This document shows positions 3,761-39,486 of a stretch of 64,000 nt of DNA, piece after piece. Within the stretch, counting starts at the first letter, position 1; every line of letters starts with the position of its first letter. A program made the position numbers and the translations under genes. Location: the IMG/VR virus record IMGVR_UViG_3300013121_000019, positions 1 to 64,000 of that record. One strand, given 5' to 3'. Source of the DNA: a virus. Its lineage: Duplodnaviria; Caudoviricetes. The notes beneath the pieces were generated by a model that was given only the letters and a program-made list of their open reading frames with translations, did no database searches and was not told the DNA's origin.

Positions 3761-6700
3761 ACGTCGCGAGCCGCCCGGTGCTGAGCTTGTTCTGTGAGCG
3801 CTCCAGCACGACGGAACGGTCCACCCCGAACACCACCGCGATGATCTCGATCGGGTTCTCGATCGAGACGGCACCACGGCGCTGCATCAACCTGATCAGC
3901 TCACTGACCTCGATGTAATCATCGGGCAGCAGCCCGTTGATGTAGTCGAGGATGTCGGGGCGCACGACCGACTCAGCAGATCCGCCCATGTAGGTCAGGG
4001 CGCACCGCACCATGTGGACGATGAGGTGGCGGGCCAGCGGGCTCGCATCGACGACACGTTCGAGTGACGCCGACAGGAAGTTCTGCGCATCGGCCACCGT
4101 CTGCGAGCGCCAGTAGATCACCTGCAGACCCTGGCCCAAGAGATGTGTGGCGTTCTCAGGATCGTCGGATGTACCGACCTCTAGGATCGTCGGGGACAGC
4201 GTCATCGTGACGTCTTCGGTTGTAGAGAACGTCAGGTTCTGGCTGCGGGTCGACAACCGGTACCCGTCGGACCGATACCCCGTGGCGGTCATCAGATTGC
4301 CCGCGGAGATGTTCCAGGTGTCGCCCGGTCCCTCCGACAGGAGCTCTACGTCGAACCAGTAGAGTCCGTTAGGAAGTAGGTTCTTCGCCATGTCGGTCGC
4401 TACGATGCGCTGCACACCAGGTCGAATCACTCGGAAGTGCTGGCGCGTTGCCGCGGTGAACGTCTCGCCACCACACGTCAGCGCCCCGGGGGCTACGGCG
4501 GTGATGGCGTAGCGGCCAACATTGGGGCACGGTGTTCCGGCCGTGTTGAGCGTGTCGGCCACGGCGCTGAACCCAAGGAGGGCATTGGCGCTACCGCTGG
4601 CGCGTACCACGATCGACACGTCACCCTCGAGCTCCAGGTGGTTGCCAACACCGAGCGTAGCGAGCGTTTTGCCGATGGCCTGATTGATCTGCTTGGCGAC
4701 AGCGGCACGGGTCACAGCGCCCACAGGGATCGACGGATCATCGCGCATGAACGTGATGGTCTTGTCGGAACTTCCAGCGATCGACAGCACGAGCGTCTTC
4801 AGGGCTAGCGACGGTACAGGGTCCGCCAGCCCAACGGATCCAACGATCGGCCCCGAGTCGATCGACAGGATGTCGCCGACTGCCACGAGCTTACTGATGA
4901 AGTCGATGGAGCTCGAGCTGAGCGTGTCGACGCCGGTGGTCACGCCATCCGACGGCGATGTGACGGACGGCGGACCCGGAATGCGTGTGTACTCGAGCGT
5001 CGGGTCGGGTCGGTAATGCAGGTCGCCGAGGTTCTCGTCGACGTACGTGAACGTCGCGGATGCATCGACCTCGAAAGTAGTGGGCTCCAGGAAGAAGAGT
5101 CGGCAGCTGCCGAGGGACGGAGCTCCGATCCGCACCTTGCGCCGCAACTCCGGCACGAAGTCACGGTCGGTCATCACGGCCTGGCTGACGCCAGAGTAGA
5201 CGCTGACGGCGCGACAGAAGCCGACCTGCCCGCCGTCCATGACTGCCACGACGTCCATGTCCTCGAGCGGGATCGTCAACCCGTTGGACCAGTTCGTGAT
5301 GCTGAGCGATCGAACATGTCGCGAGTCGAACGCAGCGGCTGCGCCGAACAGCTCAGTGACCGCGGTGCCACCGGTGACCCGTAGGTTGCGCCCCATGGCA
5401 CGAAGACCAAGACGCTCCTCAGCACCGTCAGGCACGATCACCGCGATGTTCTGCAAGATGTCCGCGGAGGACACCGCGTTGATCTGGCTCACGATGGACG
5501 ACAGCGAGATGGGCTCGCCGCCGACCAACGTGATGTGCATCGTCGTCAGCCCGTCGACCAGGATGTCCAGTGTGAGCCCCGCAGCGTTGTAGCCGCTGCC
5601 GGCCTGGCGGCCCACGATGCCGAGCAGTGCATCGGTGACCTCGGCCTTCACGCCGCGTGCGATGTTCGAGAACGCGGTAGAGCGCCCGTCCACCGGGCAC
5701 GCGTACGGCACAGTGGAGCCGACAGGCTGCCCGGTGGCGTCCAGCAGCTCCACGCTCTTCACGCGCAGCAGTGGGCGAACCACACCGCCGGAAGGATTGA
5801 GCTTGAAGATCGTGAAGTCTACGTGAGACGTGGTCGACTTGAACGGGCGGTCAACCACGACCTCCGTGAAGAAGGCACCGCCACCCAGCGACCTGACGGT
5901 GTAGTCCCCGGCGTCCGGGCCACGGTGCACCCTCAGGATGTCCTTGGCCGCCACACCGAACTCGGACATGTCCGTACCGCTCAGCGTCGTGACCGTTGCC
6001 GAGCCCTGAACCGTCGACAGGTCGGAGCCGCGCAGTCGAATGAACTTCGGCTCGACCAAATCGACATCCACCTCATCGGAGATGCTCCACATGAGGCCAG
6101 TCTCAAGTACGAAGGGCGCCGGATCGACCTCCACGTACGGGTGGTCGTCGGGCACCGACGGCTGCACAACCCGTAGGATGCGAAAGACGCCAGCCGCGAC
6201 ACCGGAGGGAATCGTGATGGAACGCCCCACGGAGCGCTCGAGCTCTAGGTAGTGCGCGTCGTCCTCCTCGTAGTTGGTGCCCAACGTGTAGTCATTGAGG
6301 TAGATGCGCGCAGGGCTCTCCCAGGTAGTGGCGCGGGCCCCGCTGAGCAGTGGGGTCTCGTCACTCAGCGTAGAGATCGTCAGCGAAGCCTCATCGGGCT
6401 CCGCGCCCTGGCAGTACACATCGTACGCACCGCCAATGTGCACCACATCGTCGTCCACATGAGTGAGGCCGAACTCGCCCTCGGGGAAGAGGATGCCGCC
6501 GGGGATGTCCGAGAGGGTGAGCTCGCTACGACGCAGCATCCAGTACAGCGGCACGACCACCGGCGAGGTGTCGAGCAGCACGCTGTCCACGACGTCCACC
6601 TCGACCGAAGGGGCACCGCCGTTGGGCACGACGCTGACGATCGACAGATCACGTACCTGAGGGCTAGTGGCGAATCCGCCAAACACCGTCAGGATGAACC

Positions 6701-19283: not shown

Positions 19284-19835
19284 ATGAAGATCGACCTCGC
19301 GTCGCAGCTCGCCGAGATGTCCGCCGAGGAGCTCGAGGATGCCATCAACGGCGGCAACAGCGGCCTCATCGCCAGCATGGCCGCGCACTGGGCCAAACAG
19401 GAGGGCCTCACGCCCGAGCAGGCCACCAGGCTGAAGGGCCTGCTGGCCGACGCCGCCGGCATGGGCCGCAAGAACATCGAGTCGCTGCACGCGAAGGCGG
19501 CACCGACGCCGAAGACGGCGGCCGAAGACGCCGCGGAGATGCTGCAGGCTGAGGCGAACCGTCTGAAGGGCCTCCGCAACGCCTACGCGGAGCTCGAGCA
19601 ACACGAACGCCGGTCGGCCGCCCTTCGACACGCCGCCATGCCGGAGCGGTTCGAGGCGGAGCAACTCGCGGAGGTCGAGCAGCGGCGGCGGCAGCCCGAA
19701 CAGGCACACGCGGAAGGCCAGCGGTACGCCGAGCGTGAGCTCCGCGCGATCGCGAAGGCCACCGGCGCCATGGTGGCGACGGTGGCCGGCTCCATGGTGC
19801 TCGCCGTGCTGGTGAAGAAGGCGCTGCGCCAGTAG
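19284..19835 (+). CDS. Accessory coiled-coil protein with C-terminal hydrophobic helix
   Basis: High GC3 codon use; has its own promoter motif and a downstream hairpin. Confidence 0.65.
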   Translation: MKIDLASQLAEMSAEELEDAINGGNSGLIASMAAHWAKQEGLTPEQATRLKGLLADAAGMGRKNIESLHAKAAPTPKTAAEDAAEMLQAEANRLKGLRNAYAELEQHERRSAALRHAAMPERFEAEQLAEVEQRRRQPEQAHAEGQRYAERELRAIAKATGAMVATVAGSMVLAVLVKKALRQ

Positions 19836-35850: not shown

Positions 35851-36666
35851 ATGATGGCCGACATCAGCTTACTTGTTAGCGACGACGACGCAACGAACGC
35901 CAAACCCTGGCGACAACATGACCTAACCGGACAGGTCATTCACGAAGTGGTGGTGGAGGCATGCATCGCCACCACGATAGACAAGCAGAAGAAGTGGAGA
36001 GTTCGCTGTCTGTCTTGTGGAGGTGCGTTCGCGCGTACGACCTACGAGATCAATCAGTACCGACGTGACCGCACCACGTTTTCTTGTCGGACGTGCTTCG
36101 AGGAGCTTCGCGACGGCACGCGCAGTGAGCGTCGAAGCTACTGGCACATGCGCCTGAAGCAGTTCTGGGACCAGTACGGCATCCTGTACGGTGCCAGCTA
36201 CCATCACGCAGAGATCGAAGCCCTACGTGAGGCGTTCTTCGCCGACGAGGGACCGCCGATGGAGCATTTGCGACCGGAAGACCTGACGGTGGCAGTAGCT
36301 GGACGGAAACAGCCACACACTGCCCGTATTCAGAACGTCTTCGAGCTGTACCCGGTGAGGGCCGGCAAATCCGAGGCGTTCAATTGCGAGTACTGTAGCC
36401 GACTGCACACGAAGGGGTTCGCGTGCACGTGCTGCCGCACGGTGGTGTGCTGCGCGTGCGTGGAAAACGAAACGCATGCCTGCGAGGGCAGCGGGCACGA
36501 GCACGACGAGTCCGCTGGATGGGTGACCGATCGGCACGGGCAGCTGGTATACGACTGGTACGCCGGTAGTCAGCCGGAGTTCCTCAAGCGCATCGCGCAG
36601 TCCTGCCTGCTCTCCAAGGTCAAGGTGACCAAAGACGGTGGGCTGGCGACATTCCGACGAGCATAA
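35851..36666 (+). CDS. Multi-Zn-finger protein
   Basis: Several CxxC pairs; N-terminal 'DLTGQ...WRVRC..CG' resembles HNH-associated repeats; AAGGAGG RBS. Confidence 0.6.
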   Translation: MMADISLLVSDDDATNAKPWRQHDLTGQVIHEVVVEACIATTIDKQKKWRVRCLSCGGAFARTTYEINQYRRDRTTFSCRTCFEELRDGTRSERRSYWHMRLKQFWDQYGILYGASYHHAEIEALREAFFADEGPPMEHLRPEDLTVAVAGRKQPHTARIQNVFELYPVRAGKSEAFNCEYCSRLHTKGFACTCCRTVVCCACVENETHACEGSGHEHDESAGWVTDRHGQLVYDWYAGSQPEFLKRIAQSCLLSKVKVTKDGGLATFRRA

Positions 36667-36762: not shown

Positions 36763-37419
36763 ATGACCGATAAGAAGACCGCAGATGATGCTGGTTCCGA
36801 GGCCAAGGGCCAGATCCCGCCGCCGAAGTTCGCGATCGCCGAGTTCATCCTGACCGGGAATGCCCCGTACGTCAGCAACAAGTTCTCCCAGGAGGCCCGC
36901 GAGATGATGCGGGCCAAGCAGGCAGCCGGCTCCACGGCTCGCAAGGGCGCCAAGCGCGAGCCCAAGGACTTCGACAAGTGCTTCAAGCAGTCGATGCACG
37001 CGACCGAGGACGGCAAGTACGGCGTGCCGGCGTCGTGCTTCAGGCAGGCCCTCGTCAGCGCTTGCCGCATCGTCGGGTTCAAGATGACGCTGGCGAAGCT
37101 CGCGCTGTTCGTGGTCGCCGACGGCATCGACGCGGACGACGCCAGCCCACTGGTGTTGTTCACGAAGGGGGAACCGCAGCACTTCGAGAGCGCCACCCGC
37201 AACGAGACCGGCGTGGCCGACATCCGCGCGCGTGGCAAGTGGGATACCGGATGGCAGATCCGTCTGCGCGTCCGGTACGACTCCGACATGTTCACGAAGT
37301 CCGATGTCACCAACCTGCTGGCGCGCGTCGGCGTGCAGGTCGGGATCGGCGCCGGAAGACCCGACTCCAAGACCTCCTGCGGTCAGGGATGGGGTACGTT
37401 CGATATCGAGGCGGTCTAG
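36763..37419 (+). CDS. Solitary Cas7/RAMP-like RNA-binding protein (218 aa)
   Basis: RAMP hallmarks in order: 'FILTGNAPY' beta1, 'YGVPASCFRQAL' (cf. IPGSSLKGAL), thumb-like hairpin 'RNETGVADIRAR', and C-terminal G-rich loop 'GIGAGRP...GQGWGTF'. Confidence 0.75.
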   Translation: MTDKKTADDAGSEAKGQIPPPKFAIAEFILTGNAPYVSNKFSQEAREMMRAKQAAGSTARKGAKREPKDFDKCFKQSMHATEDGKYGVPASCFRQALVSACRIVGFKMTLAKLALFVVADGIDADDASPLVLFTKGEPQHFESATRNETGVADIRARGKWDTGWQIRLRVRYDSDMFTKSDVTNLLARVGVQVGIGAGRPDSKTSCGQGWGTFDIEAV

Positions 37420-37420
37420 C

Positions 37421-38002
37421 GGCCAAGCTGGCTGAGCTAAGAATGGTGTGGCCCAGCATGCCTGAGCATGGCGAAGCGGGCAGGGCGTAGCTAGGAATGG
37501 CTAGTCAACGCACAGCGGGCATGGCATGGCTTGGCAACGCCAAGCAAGGCCAAGCAGGCTAGGTGGAGCAATCACGGGCTTGGATTGGCGAATCGTGGCA
37601 AAGCAGAGCGAGTCCAAGCAGGCTCAGCGCGGCGTGGCTTGGTCAGGCCAGGCAGGCGTGGCAGTGGAGGTGGAGCATGGAATAGACGAGTTCGGTCAGG
37701 CAACGCAGAGCCGGCGTGGCATGGCACCGCTGCGAGCAGCTCGGTAAAGCAAAGCCGGCGAGGCTTAGCTACACCAGGAAGGACAAGGCAAAGCAGGCGT
37801 GGCGGAGCGGAGCGGGGTGTGGCAAAGATGCGCGAAGCAGCGCAGGCCGCGCTGGGCATGGCAACACCGAGTAAGGAGGTGAATGGCCAGGCAGGCTGAG
37901 CAAGGTGTGGCGAGGCGGCGCAACGCGCAGCAGAGCTGAGCAGCACCATGCTGGCGTAGCTGAGCTTGGCGTCGCCCGGCGCGACGGGGCTTAGTGAAGC
38001 CA
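37421..38002 (+). ncRNA. Pentamer (RGY-NN) array, putative guide-RNA precursor of ~12 units
   Basis: Hand parse gives 106 pentamers plus 13 tetramers = 582 nt exactly; about 77/106 pentamers start with RGY. It fills the gap between the RAMP stop and the terminator. Confidence 0.8.
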
Positions 38003-38046
38003 GGAACGAACACCCTCTTCGGAGAGTGTTCGTTCCTTTTAGCTAC
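38002..38046 (+). terminator. Intrinsic terminator closing the RAMP/array transcript
   Basis: AGGAACGAACACCCTC-TTCG-GAGAGTGTTCGTTCCT then TTTAGCTA. Confidence 0.85.
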
Positions 38047-38408
38047 TACTTCACTCGCGGATCGACCTTCGGAACGTGGCCAGACGGGTTGGCCTTCGGG
38101 ACGTCGGCCCGCGGATCCGCCTTGGCGACCAGCGTCTTGGCGGCCTTCTCGGCAGAAGGGTCTTTGGGCTCGCGCTTCTTCCGCGGGGCACCCGACAGCT
38201 CCGGCGTCGCCTTGTCCCGCTTCCGACGGAGCTCATCGATCAGCGTGTTGACCTGCTGACGGCAGGCCCCGCAGAGATCCTGGAACTCGAACGTCAGCGG
38301 CCACTTGACCTCGAGGGCAGGTCTGTGGGCGATCTGCTCTACCTTCGGCTGGTACTCGACGCGGGGGCACCGGTCGCACTGGATCTTGACGACCTCTTCA
38401 CGCGCCAC
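38046..38408 (-). CDS. Zn-ribbon protein with basic tail (Lsr2-N-like)
   Basis: 'CDRC...QDLCGAC' followed by a Lys/Pro-rich tail. Confidence 0.5.
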   Translation of the reverse strand: MAREEVVKIQCDRCPRVEYQPKVEQIAHRPALEVKWPLTFEFQDLCGACRQQVNTLIDELRRKRDKATPELSGAPRKKREPKDPSAEKAAKTLVAKADPRADVPKANPSGHVPKVDPRVK

Positions 38409-38878: not shown

Positions 38879-39298
38879 TCAGGCGGCCATCTTGGCATCT
38901 CTTCCCATCACGATACCGTCGACGCTGCCGTGGTAGTAGGCGGGTAGCATCCCCATCGGAAGGAAACCGAAACGACGGTACAGCGCCTTCGCTGGCTCGT
39001 TGTCGGCGCGGACCATCAGGGTCTGGAACCGCACGGGTGACCGCTCGATGACCGCGCGCAGTAGATCCTCGCCGAGCCCCCGACGCCTGGCCGACTCCAG
39101 GACGCCGATGCGGACGAGCTCGTCGTAAGCCTCCTGGCGGTGCACCAGGCAGTAGCCCTGGCGGTCATCTGTCATGAGGCCGAAGCCGAGCTCGCGCACC
39201 CTGCTGACCGCCTCGAAGGACCAGCGGTCCCGCTCGAACACCTGGCAGTCCAGCCGGTGCACAGCCAACACATCGAGGTCGGTCATCATATCGATCAC
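38879..39298 (-). CDS. GNAT acetyltransferase, RimI-like
   Basis: 'IGV...RRRGLGEDLL', 'LMVRADNEPAKALYRRFGF', 'YY....DG..M'. Confidence 0.85.
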   Translation of the reverse strand: MIDMMTDLDVLAVHRLDCQVFERDRWSFEAVSRVRELGFGLMTDDRQGYCLVHRQEAYDELVRIGVLESARRRGLGEDLLRAVIERSPVRFQTLMVRADNEPAKALYRRFGFLPMGMLPAYYHGSVDGIVMGRDAKMAA

Positions 39299-39486
39299 AG
39301 CGTGGAACTCCCGAATACGCAGCCGCAGCCGCACTTGTACTCCGACGTCCCGTTGGTCTTCTTGACCTCGGAGACGAACTGGCTCTTGCACTTCGGGCAG
39401 GCCATCTTGCGGGGCCCGCCCTTGGCGCCCTGGTGAACTACGGTGGACTGCTGACCGGCCGGGATGATCGTTACCTTACGCGACAT
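39295..39486 (-). CDS. Small Zn-ribbon protein
   Basis: CPKC...CGCG; AAGGAGG RBS. Confidence 0.6.
   Translation of the reverse strand: MSRKVTIIPAGQQSTVVHQGAKGGPRKMACPKCKSQFVSEVKKTNGTSEYKCGCGCVFGSSTL

What the first reader, a model, noticed from the sequence alone, without database searches (positions are those of the whole stretch)
37421..38002. Array grammar: RGY-NN pentamers segmented by 4-nt spacers into ~12 units with AT-rich variable dinucleotides
Seen by hand parse: the tract tiles exactly into 106 pentamers and 13 tetramers (AGCT, AGCG, AGCG, AGCA, AGCA, GGCA, TGGA, AGCC, AGCC, AGCA, CGCA, GGCA, TGCT). Each tetramer is followed by GGY, making a recurrent GCAGGC-like junction. Units hold 6-12 pentamers; TGGA is treated as an internal irregularity of unit 6. 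Example, unit 37518-37556: GGCAT GGCAT GGCTT GGCAA CGCCA AGCAA GGCCA AGCA. NN strings include U1 TG-TA-AT-GT-CC-AT-TG-AT-GA, U4 TA-GG-AA-CG-TT-TT-GA-GT-AA-AG-GA-CA and U12 GT-TG-TT-GT-CC-GC-GG-TT-GA-CA. The NN positions are ~60% A/T by my count in a ~65% GC genome and differ between units, unlike a slippage microsatellite. Inference: the tetramers mark processing or filament boundaries and the NN strings carry target information in a gapped code. A 2-match/1-skip reading would tolerate wobble-position escape mutations.
Basis: partly seen in the sequence, partly recalled or inferred. Interest (0 to 1): 0.9.

Follow-up and report, generated by a model that had tools for sequence, protein, structure and literature searches.

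The report
Phage VIPR guide-RNA array (staggered type)
The 582-base five-letter-repeat tract is the guide-RNA array of a VIPR system, a CRISPR-like, phage-borne RNA-guided DNA silencer first described in 2026 preprints. It is a real new example of a known kind, not a new kind.

Summary
The NN positions are 59% A/T. The lag-5 autocorrelation exceeds all 500 shuffles.

The tract follows a 218-aa gene (36763-37419). That protein folds as a Cas7-type RAMP, and its family profile hits the solved SUSP1 Vipr protein. Relatives of this gene lie next to period-5 arrays in about 60 phage and prophage loci from many phyla, including 47 of 51 genome loci.

This is a VIPR system (bioRxiv 10.64898/2026.04.26.720920): Vipr plus vrRNAs of GGY/NN pentamers, whose NN bases read DNA with a one-base skip. 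The tetramers correspond to the paper's "staggered arrays", in which neighbouring vrRNAs overlap by 1 nt.

I found no natural target for any unit. The searches were mismatch-tolerant on held DNA and exact-match only in IMG/VR and metagenomes.

Local peculiarities:
- The first base of the repeat is relaxed (RGY).
- All 14 unit-initial pentamers are canonical GGY, against 37% of the others.
- There is no vap-like gene.
- The array ends at a strong terminator hairpin.

This scan has already noted VIPR-like loci in at least 194 other genomes.

The parts
36763..37419 (+). vipr gene: 218-aa single-domain RAMP (Cas7-like) protein. The ORF is open from GTG 36670, but ATG 36763 is preceded by GAGGAGG.
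37421..38002 (+). Staggered vrRNA array: 106 pentamers (R-G-Y-N-N) and 13 tetramer junctions, about 12 guide units.
   Evidence: The same architecture lies next to vipr homologues in other loci.
37430..37478 (+). Unit U1 (9 pentamers + AGCG). It is preceded by a 9-nt stub, 37421-37429.
37479..37517 (+). Unit U2 (7 pentamers + AGCG)
37518..37556 (+). Unit U3 (7 pentamers + AGCA), the best-formed unit
37557..37620 (+). Unit U4 (12 pentamers + AGCA). A second parse splits it at 37571-37576.
37621..37654 (+). Unit U5 (6 pentamers + GGCA)
37655..37712 (+). Unit U6 (irregular: 2 pentamers + TGGA, then 8 pentamers + AGCC)
37713..37756 (+). Unit U7 (8 pentamers + AGCC)
37757..37795 (+). Unit U8 (7 pentamers + AGCA)
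37796..37844 (+). Unit U9 (9 pentamers + CGCA)
37845..37893 (+). Unit U10 (9 pentamers + GGCA)
37894..37952 (+). Unit U11 (11 pentamers + TGCT)
37953..38002 (+). Unit U12 (10 pentamers), which runs into the terminator stem
38002..38040 (+). Terminator-like hairpin (16 predicted pairs with one internal mismatch, UUCG-type loop) followed by a T run. It lies between the array and the convergent gene 38046-38408(-).
   Evidence: Fold -29.7 kcal/mol, z -5.1, with 0 of 200 shuffles folding as well. Coordinates. The consensus scan did not call it because the T run has only 4 T.

Best explanation
The tract is the guide-RNA (vrRNA) array of a phage-encoded VIPR system (Viral Interference Programmable Repeat).

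Proposed mechanism:
- The array is transcribed with, or just after, the vipr gene (36763-37419) and ends at the hairpin at 38002-38040.
- The transcript yields about 12 guides of 7-13 pentamers each.
- Vipr, a minimal Cas7-like RAMP, polymerises on each guide with one protomer per pentamer. It sequesters the R-G-Y head and exposes the two variable bases.
- The exposed NN dinucleotides pair with double-stranded DNA in a 2-paired/1-skipped register. This silences genes of competing phages or other mobile elements.
- The tetramers are the junctions of a 'staggered' array. The last pentamer of one guide and the first (always canonical GGY) pentamer of the next share one base, so the register slips by -1 at each guide boundary.

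Shown here: the anatomy, the protein's fold and family, the conserved gene-array linkage, the junction consensus, and the 5' constraint of each unit.

Inferred from the literature on relatives: filament formation, the 1-nt skip rule, DNA silencing, and processing at the junctions.

For: (2) RNA. The array has 106 RGY-NN pentamers on the same strand as vipr, starting directly after its stop codon.

(3) Linkage. Period-5 arrays flank vipr homologues in 8 of 10 IMG/VR loci, in Cyanophage Cy-LDV1 and in Cheoctovirus mycobacteriophages. They also flank homologues in 47 of 51 bacterial genome loci, spanning Planctomycetota, Verrucomicrobiota, Bradyrhizobium, cyanobacteria and others.

(4) Junctions. 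Across 526 junctions in about 75 arrays of this clade, the tetramer is GGC-A followed by GGC (A in 81%). The modal unit is 10-11 pentamers. This fits the paper's 9-16 repeats per vrRNA and its fig. S18 'staggered arrays ... 1 nt overlapping positions'.

(5) Unit starts. All 14 unit-initial pentamers in the window are GGY, against 37% of the rest (p = 4e-6). Canonical heads decline from 5' to 3' within units. The units are therefore discrete entities.

(6) NN composition. It fits codon positions 1-2 of this phage's genes (+20.5 bits sense, +10.2 antisense over genome dinucleotides). It does not fit positions 2-3 (-41 bits) or 3-1 (-47 bits). This is what a wobble-skipping code aimed at GC-rich coding DNA predicts.

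(7) Array turnover. Arrays in six related mycobacteriophages differ by whole-unit gain or loss and by single NN changes, as expected of a guide repertoire.

(8) No CRISPR context. There are no CRISPR repeats within +/-10 kb and no PADLOC (anti-phage defence) model hit on vipr or the four neighbouring proteins scanned.

(9) The record is an IMG/VR virus.
Against: - No natural target was found for any unit. The collection scans could find only exact matches, and the host is unknown.
- The sequence link to an experimentally studied Vipr is modest: E 2.6e-4 over 56 residues.
- Only 37% of non-initial pentamers have a canonical GGY head. The first base is G 58% / A 28% / C 12%, whereas relatives show 80-100% G.
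- The neighbour gene conserved in 9 of 12 related loci (a vap candidate) is absent from this record, which is 72% complete.
- Expression evidence is weak: assembled metatranscriptome contigs from two sludge studies cover parts of the array.
- The paper does not claim sRNA-seq confirmation for the staggered architecture.
Confidence: 0.87

Rival explanations
1. A VIPR-derived array that is decaying or only partly functional. The vipr gene is intact, but many pentamers have lost the canonical head, so only some units, or only their 5' parts, still load Vipr.
For: - Only 39 of 105 non-initial pentamers are GGY, and canonical heads fall towards the 3' end of units.
- Relatives keep 80-100% G at position 1.
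- There is no vap-like gene.
- No target was found.
Against: - Positions 2 (G 91%) and 3 (C/T 89%) are well kept.
- All 14 unit starts are canonical.
- The closest relatives, L001 and L014, show the same relaxed first base, so it looks like a clade trait rather than decay.
- The array is letter-identical in contigs of two other wastewater metagenome runs, filed under a different study (X2, X3), and occurs in RNA-library contigs.
Confidence: 0.07
2. A DNA-level element. On this reading the tract is a 5-bp-periodic array of binding sites, or an R-loop- or G-quadruplex-prone G-rich tract, that acts in replication, partition or packaging and is not a guide RNA.
For: - The + strand is G-rich (G 233, C 142) with GG every 5 nt.
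- It lies in the early region of temperate phages, near the repressor, cro and excisionase genes, in relatives.
Against: - The array keeps the same strand as vipr and is bounded by its stop codon and a terminator.
- One relative (L009) uses C-rich CGC-NN pentamers with the same GCA|GG junction, which argues against a G4 or R-loop requirement.
- The linked protein is an RNA-binding RAMP.
- Homologous arrays were shown to be RNAs bound by Vipr.
Confidence: 0.03
3. A translated low-complexity protein. The ORF 37531-37899 (+) or 37572-37949 (-) is a real gene, as mycobacteriophage annotations of the equivalent tract imply.
For: - ORFs of 122 and 125 aa exist in the tract.
- GenBank records annotate the homologous tract as a CDS, for example Donkeykong gp48.
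Against: - The period is 5, not 3.
- The frame shifts by -1 at every unit.
- Stop codons occur in every frame of the tract.
- Arrays in relatives differ by insertions of 5n+4 nt, which would break any frame.
- GGC-rich sequence lacks stop codons by composition alone.
Confidence: 0.01

Closest known systems
VIPR systems with 'staggered' vrRNA arrays (bioRxiv 10.64898/2026.04.26.720920, Fig. 5A and fig. S18 legend)
   Same: - A lone small RAMP (Vipr) gene in a phage.
- A same-strand array of GGY/NN-type pentamers.
- Guides abut without spacers or hairpins and overlap by one base, giving 5n+4 units.
- There is no CRISPR array and no other cas gene.
   Different: - The type (I-VII) cannot be assigned, because the paper's tables and figures are not held.
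- The window's repeat head is R-G-Y rather than G-G-Y.
- No vap gene is present in the record.
- The paper does not claim sRNA-seq confirmation for staggered arrays, so the boundaries here are inferred from sequence.
Type II VIPR of Escherichia phage SUSP1 and a Pseudomonas fulva prophage (same preprint; structures in 10.64898/2026.04.26.720927; biology in 10.64898/2026.10.15.759431)
   Same: - The protein family: the profile hits the solved SUSP1 Vipr chain.
- The G-loop arginine aligned to SUSP1 R179 is invariant in this clade.
- Pentamer repeats with variable NN.
- 9-16 repeats per guide there, against 7-13 here.
   Different: - SUSP1 vrRNAs are separate transcripts of about 100 nt, each with a conserved 3' tail and pseudoknot. 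Here there is no tail, only a GCA|GG junction.
- The residues aligned to SUSP1 D177 and W178 (contacts to G1 and G2) are Ala and Gly here, and Glu and Gly in most of the clade.
- The accessory gene vap1 is absent.
Class 1 CRISPR-Cas backbone subunits (Cas7, Csm3, Cmr4) on crRNA
   Different: - The period is 5 nt with three bases hidden and two read, not 6 nt with five read and one flipped.
- There is no repeat-spacer array, no Cas6-type hairpin, no Cas1/Cas2 and no large or small subunits.
- The system is carried by a virus.
Non-canonical VIPR arrays recovered by a genomic language model (bioRxiv 10.64898/2026.10.21.760802)
   Same: That study reports period-5 arrays next to Vipr-like folds whose fixed trinucleotide departs from GGY. 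The relatives found here with CGC-NN (L009) and GGA-NN (L005) heads, and the window's degenerate first base, belong to the same phenomenon.
   Different: That paper lists GAC, CAC, WGT and TGH heads with about 10 repeats. It does not describe, in the text held, a junction motif that is conserved across different heads.

Membership tests
VIPR system | vrRNA: tandem YNNGG (GGY/NN) pentamers, at least 4 units, in the intergenic DNA flanking vipr | tested here: met
   106 pentamers begin 2 nt after the vipr stop codon, on the same strand. Pos2 is G in 91% and pos3 is C/T in 89%, and NN is variable. The first base is relaxed (G 58%, A 28%).
VIPR system | Guides of about 9-16 repeats | tested here: met
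   Units have 7-13 repeats. The clade-wide mode is 10-11.
VIPR system | Staggered architecture: adjacent vrRNAs overlap by 1 nt | tested here: met
   There are 13 tetramer junctions, each followed by GGY. Autocorrelation peaks at 5n-1. The consensus GGC-A|GGC holds over 526 junctions of the clade. The RNA ends themselves were not observed.
VIPR system | Non-CRISPR, viral or proviral context | tested here: met
   The record is an IMG/VR virus record. There are no CRISPR-like repeats within +/-10 kb. Vipr and the four neighbouring proteins scanned hit no PADLOC (anti-phage defence) model.
VIPR system | Accessory gene (vap) next to vipr ('typically' present; not obligatory) | tested here: not met
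   The neighbour family conserved in 9 of 12 related loci (alignment A2) has no match in the 132-kb record. The upstream 271-aa Cys-rich ORF is not shared with the closest relative. The record is only 72% complete.
VIPR system | NN strings match DNA of competing elements under the 1-nt skip rule (>= 80% NN match), better than other skip lengths | tested here: inconclusive
   No unit exceeded shuffled controls at skip 0-3 in the phage record or about 60 related loci. Exact 1-nt-skip patterns in IMG/VR and JGI metagenomes gave 0 hits or chance-level hits. No mismatch-tolerant search of large collections was possible.
VIPR system | vrRNAs are expressed and co-purify with Vipr | not testable with these tools
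   The only data are contigs from RNA libraries of two sludge studies, which cover 37634-37827 and 37850-38000. Contigs show neither ends nor strand.
CRISPR-Cas class 1 (Cas7 family member) | Repeat-spacer CRISPR array, a 6-nt guide period, and associated cas genes | tested here: not met
   The period is 5. There are no direct repeats of CRISPR type. Vipr and the four neighbouring proteins scanned matched no PADLOC model, and the neighbours scanned against Pfam gave only a GNAT acetyltransferase.

The most novel reading that the evidence does not exclude
In this large Vipr clade the guides have no tail, hairpin or ribozyme. The boundary signal may be the -1 register slip itself, at a conserved GC-A|GG junction. 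That junction is kept even where the repeat head has changed (CGC-NN in L009, GGA-NN in L005). Each guide begins with an obligatory canonical GGY pentamer.

On this reading, guide length would be set by where a 5-nt-phased Vipr filament nucleates and runs out of register, and not by a dedicated processing structure.

In the window's subclade, the loss of the acidic G-loop residue that contacts G1 in SUSP1 (Ala here) may go with a relaxed R/N-G-Y head. That would make it a Vipr variant that reads only two fixed bases.
Probability: 0.2. Interest if true: 0.5.

Novelty: new member of a known kind. Interest (0 to 1): 0.27.

Why it matters
VIPR is a newly reported RNA-guided DNA-recognition system that may be older than CRISPR, so each well-described natural locus helps to map its diversity.

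This locus adds four things:
- A clean natural example of the staggered architecture, for which the paper claims no sRNA-seq confirmation, in a roughly 130-180-kb wastewater phage.
- Evidence that the same clade spans many bacterial phyla and includes the well-studied Cheoctovirus (Che8-like) mycobacteriophages, where experiments would be easy.
- A clade-wide junction consensus and a 5'-to-3' gradient of head quality. Both constrain models of how such arrays are cut or loaded.
- A practical annotation point: public phage records annotate these arrays as hypothetical proteins.

It does not change the known picture of what VIPR is or does.

Tried and rejected
(1) Rfam (E <= 1) on 30-45 kb found nothing in the tract.

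(2) Pfam, NCBIfam and PADLOC gave no hit for Vipr or its neighbours.

(3) Self-targets and cross-targets. All window units, and about 70 units from related loci, were scanned at skip 0, 1, 2 and 3 against the 132-kb phage record and all held loci (up to 0.67 Mb on both strands), with shuffled-NN controls. No hit stood above the shuffles. The paper also reports no self-targets.

(4) Exact 1-nt-skip patterns in IMG/VR:
- U11 (10 NN), U1 (9 NN) and U9 (9 NN) gave 0 hits.
- U10 (9 NN) gave 1 hit, in a 40%-GC contig, with the next NN mismatched.
- The U4 8-NN seed gave 21 hits, all in contigs of 25-56% GC, with chance-level extension.

(5) Exact patterns in JGI metagenomes:
- U11 (10 NN) gave 0 hits.
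- The U4 9-NN seed gave 25 unrelated hits with chance-level extension. One lies in frame in a protein-isoaspartate methyltransferase gene of a 65%-GC contig; I treat it as chance.

(6) Clade-level tests of the skip rule:
- Units of six Cheoctovirus (Che8-like) mycobacteriophages were scanned against 40 kb of each phage. Nothing exceeded the shuffles.
- Their conserved 11-NN unit gave 0 hits in IMG/VR.
- A Bradyrhizobium prophage unit in 301 genomes of the genus, with up to 2 mismatches, gave 3 hits against 2 for the reversed control.

(7) Decoding the NN strings by hand into degenerate peptides, in both orientations, gave no motif I could recognise. No tool was used, so nothing is claimed from this.

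(8) RNA evidence. Only assembled contigs were available, so transcript ends and strand could not be read.

(9) G-loop Ala/Glu against first-base relaxation across 54 loci. The trend is weak (mean G at pos1 is 0.76 for Ala against 0.86 for Glu), it is confounded by relatedness, and three Ala loci keep 85-92% G. It is not claimed as a finding.

(10) Before the literature search I considered a TRAP-like RNA sponge, class-switch-like R-loop DNA, and a G-quadruplex. I dropped them for the reasons given under the rival explanations.

Full report
WHAT IS THERE

The tract 37421-38002 lies on the + strand. It starts 2 nt after the stop codon of an ORF (36670/36763-37419) and runs into a strong hairpin at 38002-38037, which is followed by a T run. 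Beyond the hairpin is a convergent gene.

The tract is purine- and G-rich (G 233, A 135, C 142, T 72). Its lag-5 autocorrelation is 0.451, and the highest value over lags 1-99 in 500 shuffles is 0.371. Lags 39, 44 and 49 (all 5n-1) are just as high, which shows regular -1 phase resets.

A dynamic-programming tiling, given only a weak xGC preference and penalties for 4- and 6-mers, returns 106 pentamers and 13 tetramers. NN A+T is 59.4%. Head composition is pos1 G .58 / A .28 / C .12, pos2 G .91, pos3 C .79 / T .10. It is the only period-5 tract in the 132-kb record.

THE NEIGHBOURING GENE

The most likely start is ATG 36763, which is preceded by GAGGAGG. This gives a protein of 218 aa.

The protein has no Pfam, NCBIfam or PADLOC match, and only a function-unknown PHROG match.

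A profile of the protein and eight IMG/VR homologues (alignment A1) has a single PDB match: chain 36pp_D, 'SUSP1 Vipr protein', at E 2.6e-4. The alignment covers the C-terminal strands and the glycine-rich loop.

An AlphaFold model (pLDDT 82, pTM 0.75) matches CRISPR backbone RAMPs and almost nothing else at the top of two independent structure searches:
- Foldseek E values run from 3e-5, for type VII Cas7, Csm3 and Cas7-11.

The family is large, with 3,716 representative clusters at E <= 1e-3.

CONSERVED LINKAGE

Homologues occur in 10 IMG/VR contigs, in Cyanophage Cy-LDV1 and in 27 Mycobacterium phage records; the six examined are Cheoctovirus (Che8-like). Period-5 arrays lie beside the gene in eight of the ten IMG/VR loci and in both annotated phages. 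The two IMG/VR loci without an array end shortly after the gene.

A scan of one genome per prokaryotic species found 51 more loci, and 47 of them have a period-5 array within 3 kb. These span Planctomycetota, Verrucomicrobiota, Omnitrophota, Phycisphaerae, Bradyrhizobium, cyanobacteria, Gemmatimonadota, Acidobacteriota and others.

In annotated temperate phages the module sits in the early operon, between the repressor/cro/antirepressor genes and excisionase.

IDENTIFICATION

[quoted passage not shown] It describes VIPR systems as follows:
- Vipr is a small RAMP that is mostly phage-encoded.
- vrRNAs consist of 9-16 YNNGG (GGY/NN) pentamers.
- The NN dinucleotides pair with dsDNA under a '1-nt skip rule', and the skipped base usually falls on the codon wobble position.
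- The outcome is repression of competing phages and satellites.
- There are seven types. Array architectures include 'staggered arrays with overlapping vrRNAs', and the fig. [quoted passage not shown]

Companion preprints add the following:
- The filament structure has one protomer per repeat. G1, G2 and Y3 are held by G-loop, thumb and helix-1 residues, and N4 and N5 are exposed (10.64898/2026.04.26.720927).
- Phage-satellite competition is described (10.64898/2026.10.15.759431).
- Period-5 VIPR arrays, including ones with non-GGY heads, were recovered by a genomic language model (10.64898/2026.10.21.760802).

A one-base overlap between the last pentamer of one guide and the first of the next gives exactly what is seen: units of 5n+4 nt, with each tetramer followed by GGY.

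WHAT THIS ANALYSIS ADDS

(a) Junction consensus. Over 526 junctions in about 75 arrays of this Vipr clade, the junction is GGC-A|GGC, with A at the fourth tetramer base in 81%. The modal unit has 10-11 pentamers.

(b) Junction kept under changed heads. The junction persists where the repeat head differs. L009 has C-rich CGC-NN pentamers, yet each unit begins GGC and ends CGCA. L005 has GGA-NN pentamers with GGCA|GGA junctions in a 1.2-kb array.

(c) Unit starts in the window. All 14 unit-initial pentamers are canonical GGY, against 39 of 105 others (Fisher p = 4e-6). Canonical heads decline from 13/13 at position 1, to about half at positions 2-7, to very few (5 of 30) from the eighth repeat onward. 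The units are therefore discrete and are constrained most strongly at their 5' ends.

(d) Relaxed first base. The window's first base is unusually relaxed (R/N-G-Y), a trait shared with its closest relatives L001 and L014. These proteins carry Ala at the G-loop position aligned with SUSP1 D177, the residue that contacts G1, where most of the clade has Glu. Across 54 loci the association is weak and confounded by relatedness.

(e) NN composition. The window's NN composition fits codon positions 1-2 of the phage's own genes (GC1 .62, GC2 .46, GC3 .81). The fit is +20.5 bits (sense) and +10.2 bits (antisense) over genome dinucleotides, against -41 and -47 bits for the other two codon phases. This is consistent with a wobble-skipping code. 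An avoidance of G/C that would blur the register could give a similar bias.

(f) Array turnover. Six Cheoctovirus (Che8-like) mycobacteriophages share some units and differ by whole-unit gain or loss and by single NN changes.

(g) A candidate accessory gene. A neighbour gene with no Pfam family (alignment A2) is conserved in 9 of 12 related loci and may be one of the paper's vap genes. It is absent from this record, which is 72% complete.

TARGETS

I ran it wherever the tools allowed:
- No unit of the window, and none of about 70 units from related loci, beat shuffled-NN controls at any skip length. The search space was the phage record plus all held loci.
- Exact 1-nt-skip patterns of U1, U9, U10, U11 and the 3' part of U4 gave zero or chance-level hits in IMG/VR and JGI metagenomes. 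Extension beyond the seeds was about 2 of 8 bases, most hits lay in low-GC contigs, and many had in-frame stop codons.
- Tests on relatives (mycobacteriophages and a Bradyrhizobium prophage) were also negative or at control level.

This is not evidence against the mechanism. The large collections could be scanned only for exact matches, the host is unknown, and the published searches used pangenomes of a known host and allowed 20% mismatch.

EXPRESSION AND OCCURRENCE

Contigs of several wastewater and activated-sludge runs hold half or more of the sampled words of this stretch. In the two DNA runs laid on it (X2, X3, from a study other than the likely source sample) the array is letter-identical. 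Contigs from metatranscriptome libraries of two sludge studies cover 37634-37827, 37850-38000 and part of vipr. Contigs cannot show ends, strand or level, and DNA carry-over is possible.

ALTERNATIVES

- Coding. This is excluded by the 5-nt period, by stop codons in every frame, and by indels of 5n+4 nt among relatives.
- A DNA-level element. This is unlikely, given the fixed strand relation to vipr, the flanking stop codon and terminator, the C-rich variant in L009, and the RNA-binding fold of the partner protein.
- A decaying array. This cannot be excluded for some units. It is made less likely by the conservation of G2 and Y3, by the perfect unit starts, and by the same head relaxation in the closest relatives.

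VERDICT

This is a genuine VIPR locus with a staggered vrRNA array: a new member of a kind described in 2026 preprints.

This scan has already noted VIPR-like loci many times (236 notes in at least 194 genomes), including one filed as a staggered array.

The remaining open points are the actual RNA ends, the targets, and whether the conserved junction and the relaxed head reflect a distinct loading or measuring mechanism.

Noticed in passing
L012:3444-3830 (Mycobacterium phage Donkeykong gp48); also L087:19551-19739 (Zizzle gp53), L090:19596-19760 (Gorge gp53), L091:19597-19755 (ByChance gp39): GenBank records of Cheoctovirus (Che8-like) mycobacteriophages annotate the (GGCNN)n vrRNA array upstream of the vipr homologue as 'hypothetical protein' CDSs. 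In Gorge, the vipr homologue and the next gene are annotated as one 405-aa CDS (gp54). The annotated vipr start (TTG inside the array) is probably too far upstream. ATG at L012:3944, which has an AGGA upstream, looks better.
   Followed up: partly
L086-L091, about 19446-19820: Arrays of six related mycobacteriophages share the first and last units but differ by whole-unit insertions or deletions (Donkeykong has the most units) and by single NN changes (for example TG/AG and TA/GA in one 12-repeat unit). This is a CRISPR-like pattern of repertoire turnover, without any known acquisition machinery.
   Followed up: partly
L009:4657-5060 and L005:4665-5830: Two members of the same Vipr clade use non-GGC heads. 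L009 has C-rich CGC-NN pentamers, and L005 has GGA-NN pentamers in a 1.2-kb array of about 25 units. Both keep a GCA|GG unit junction, and in L009 each unit still starts with GGC.
   Followed up: partly
L006:2413-2525: A second period-5 tract of a different kind lies about 1.5 kb upstream of the vipr homologue. It has A-N-A-N-N pentamers (ACA/AGA heads), about 20 repeats and no tetramer junctions. It may be a non-canonical or foreign (solo) vrRNA.
   Followed up: no
L011 (Cyanophage Cy-LDV1) 4600-4810 and 5400-5570: Two arrays flank the gene downstream of vipr (g33, a member of the conserved neighbour family A2). Each array runs directly into the ribosome-binding site and ATG of the next gene (g33 and the excisionase g32).
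   Followed up: no
window 35851-36666 (+): The 271-aa ORF immediately upstream of vipr is rich in CxxC pairs and looks like a zinc-finger protein. It has no family match and no counterpart upstream of vipr in the closest relative, L001. Whether it serves as an accessory (vap-like) DNA-binding protein is unknown.
   Followed up: partly
window 36763-37419, G-loop GIGAGRPDS: The residue aligned to SUSP1 D177 (contact to G1 of GGY) is Ala in the window and in L001, L014, L047, L052, L053 and L055, and Glu in 47 other loci. The window, L001 and L014 have the most A at pentamer position 1 (19-35%), but three Ala loci keep 85-92% G. The link is therefore suggestive only.
   Followed up: partly
window 38879-39391 (-): A GNAT-family acetyltransferase gene (Pfam PF00583, E 2.5e-9) lies about 0.9 kb downstream of the array, on the opposite strand.
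   Followed up: no
L100:757-782: The 9-NN 1-nt-skip pattern of the 3' part of unit U4 matches, in frame with the skips on wobble positions, a protein-L-isoaspartate O-methyltransferase-like gene in a 65%-GC metagenome contig. It is one of 25 otherwise unrelated hits, so I treat it as chance.
   Followed up: yes
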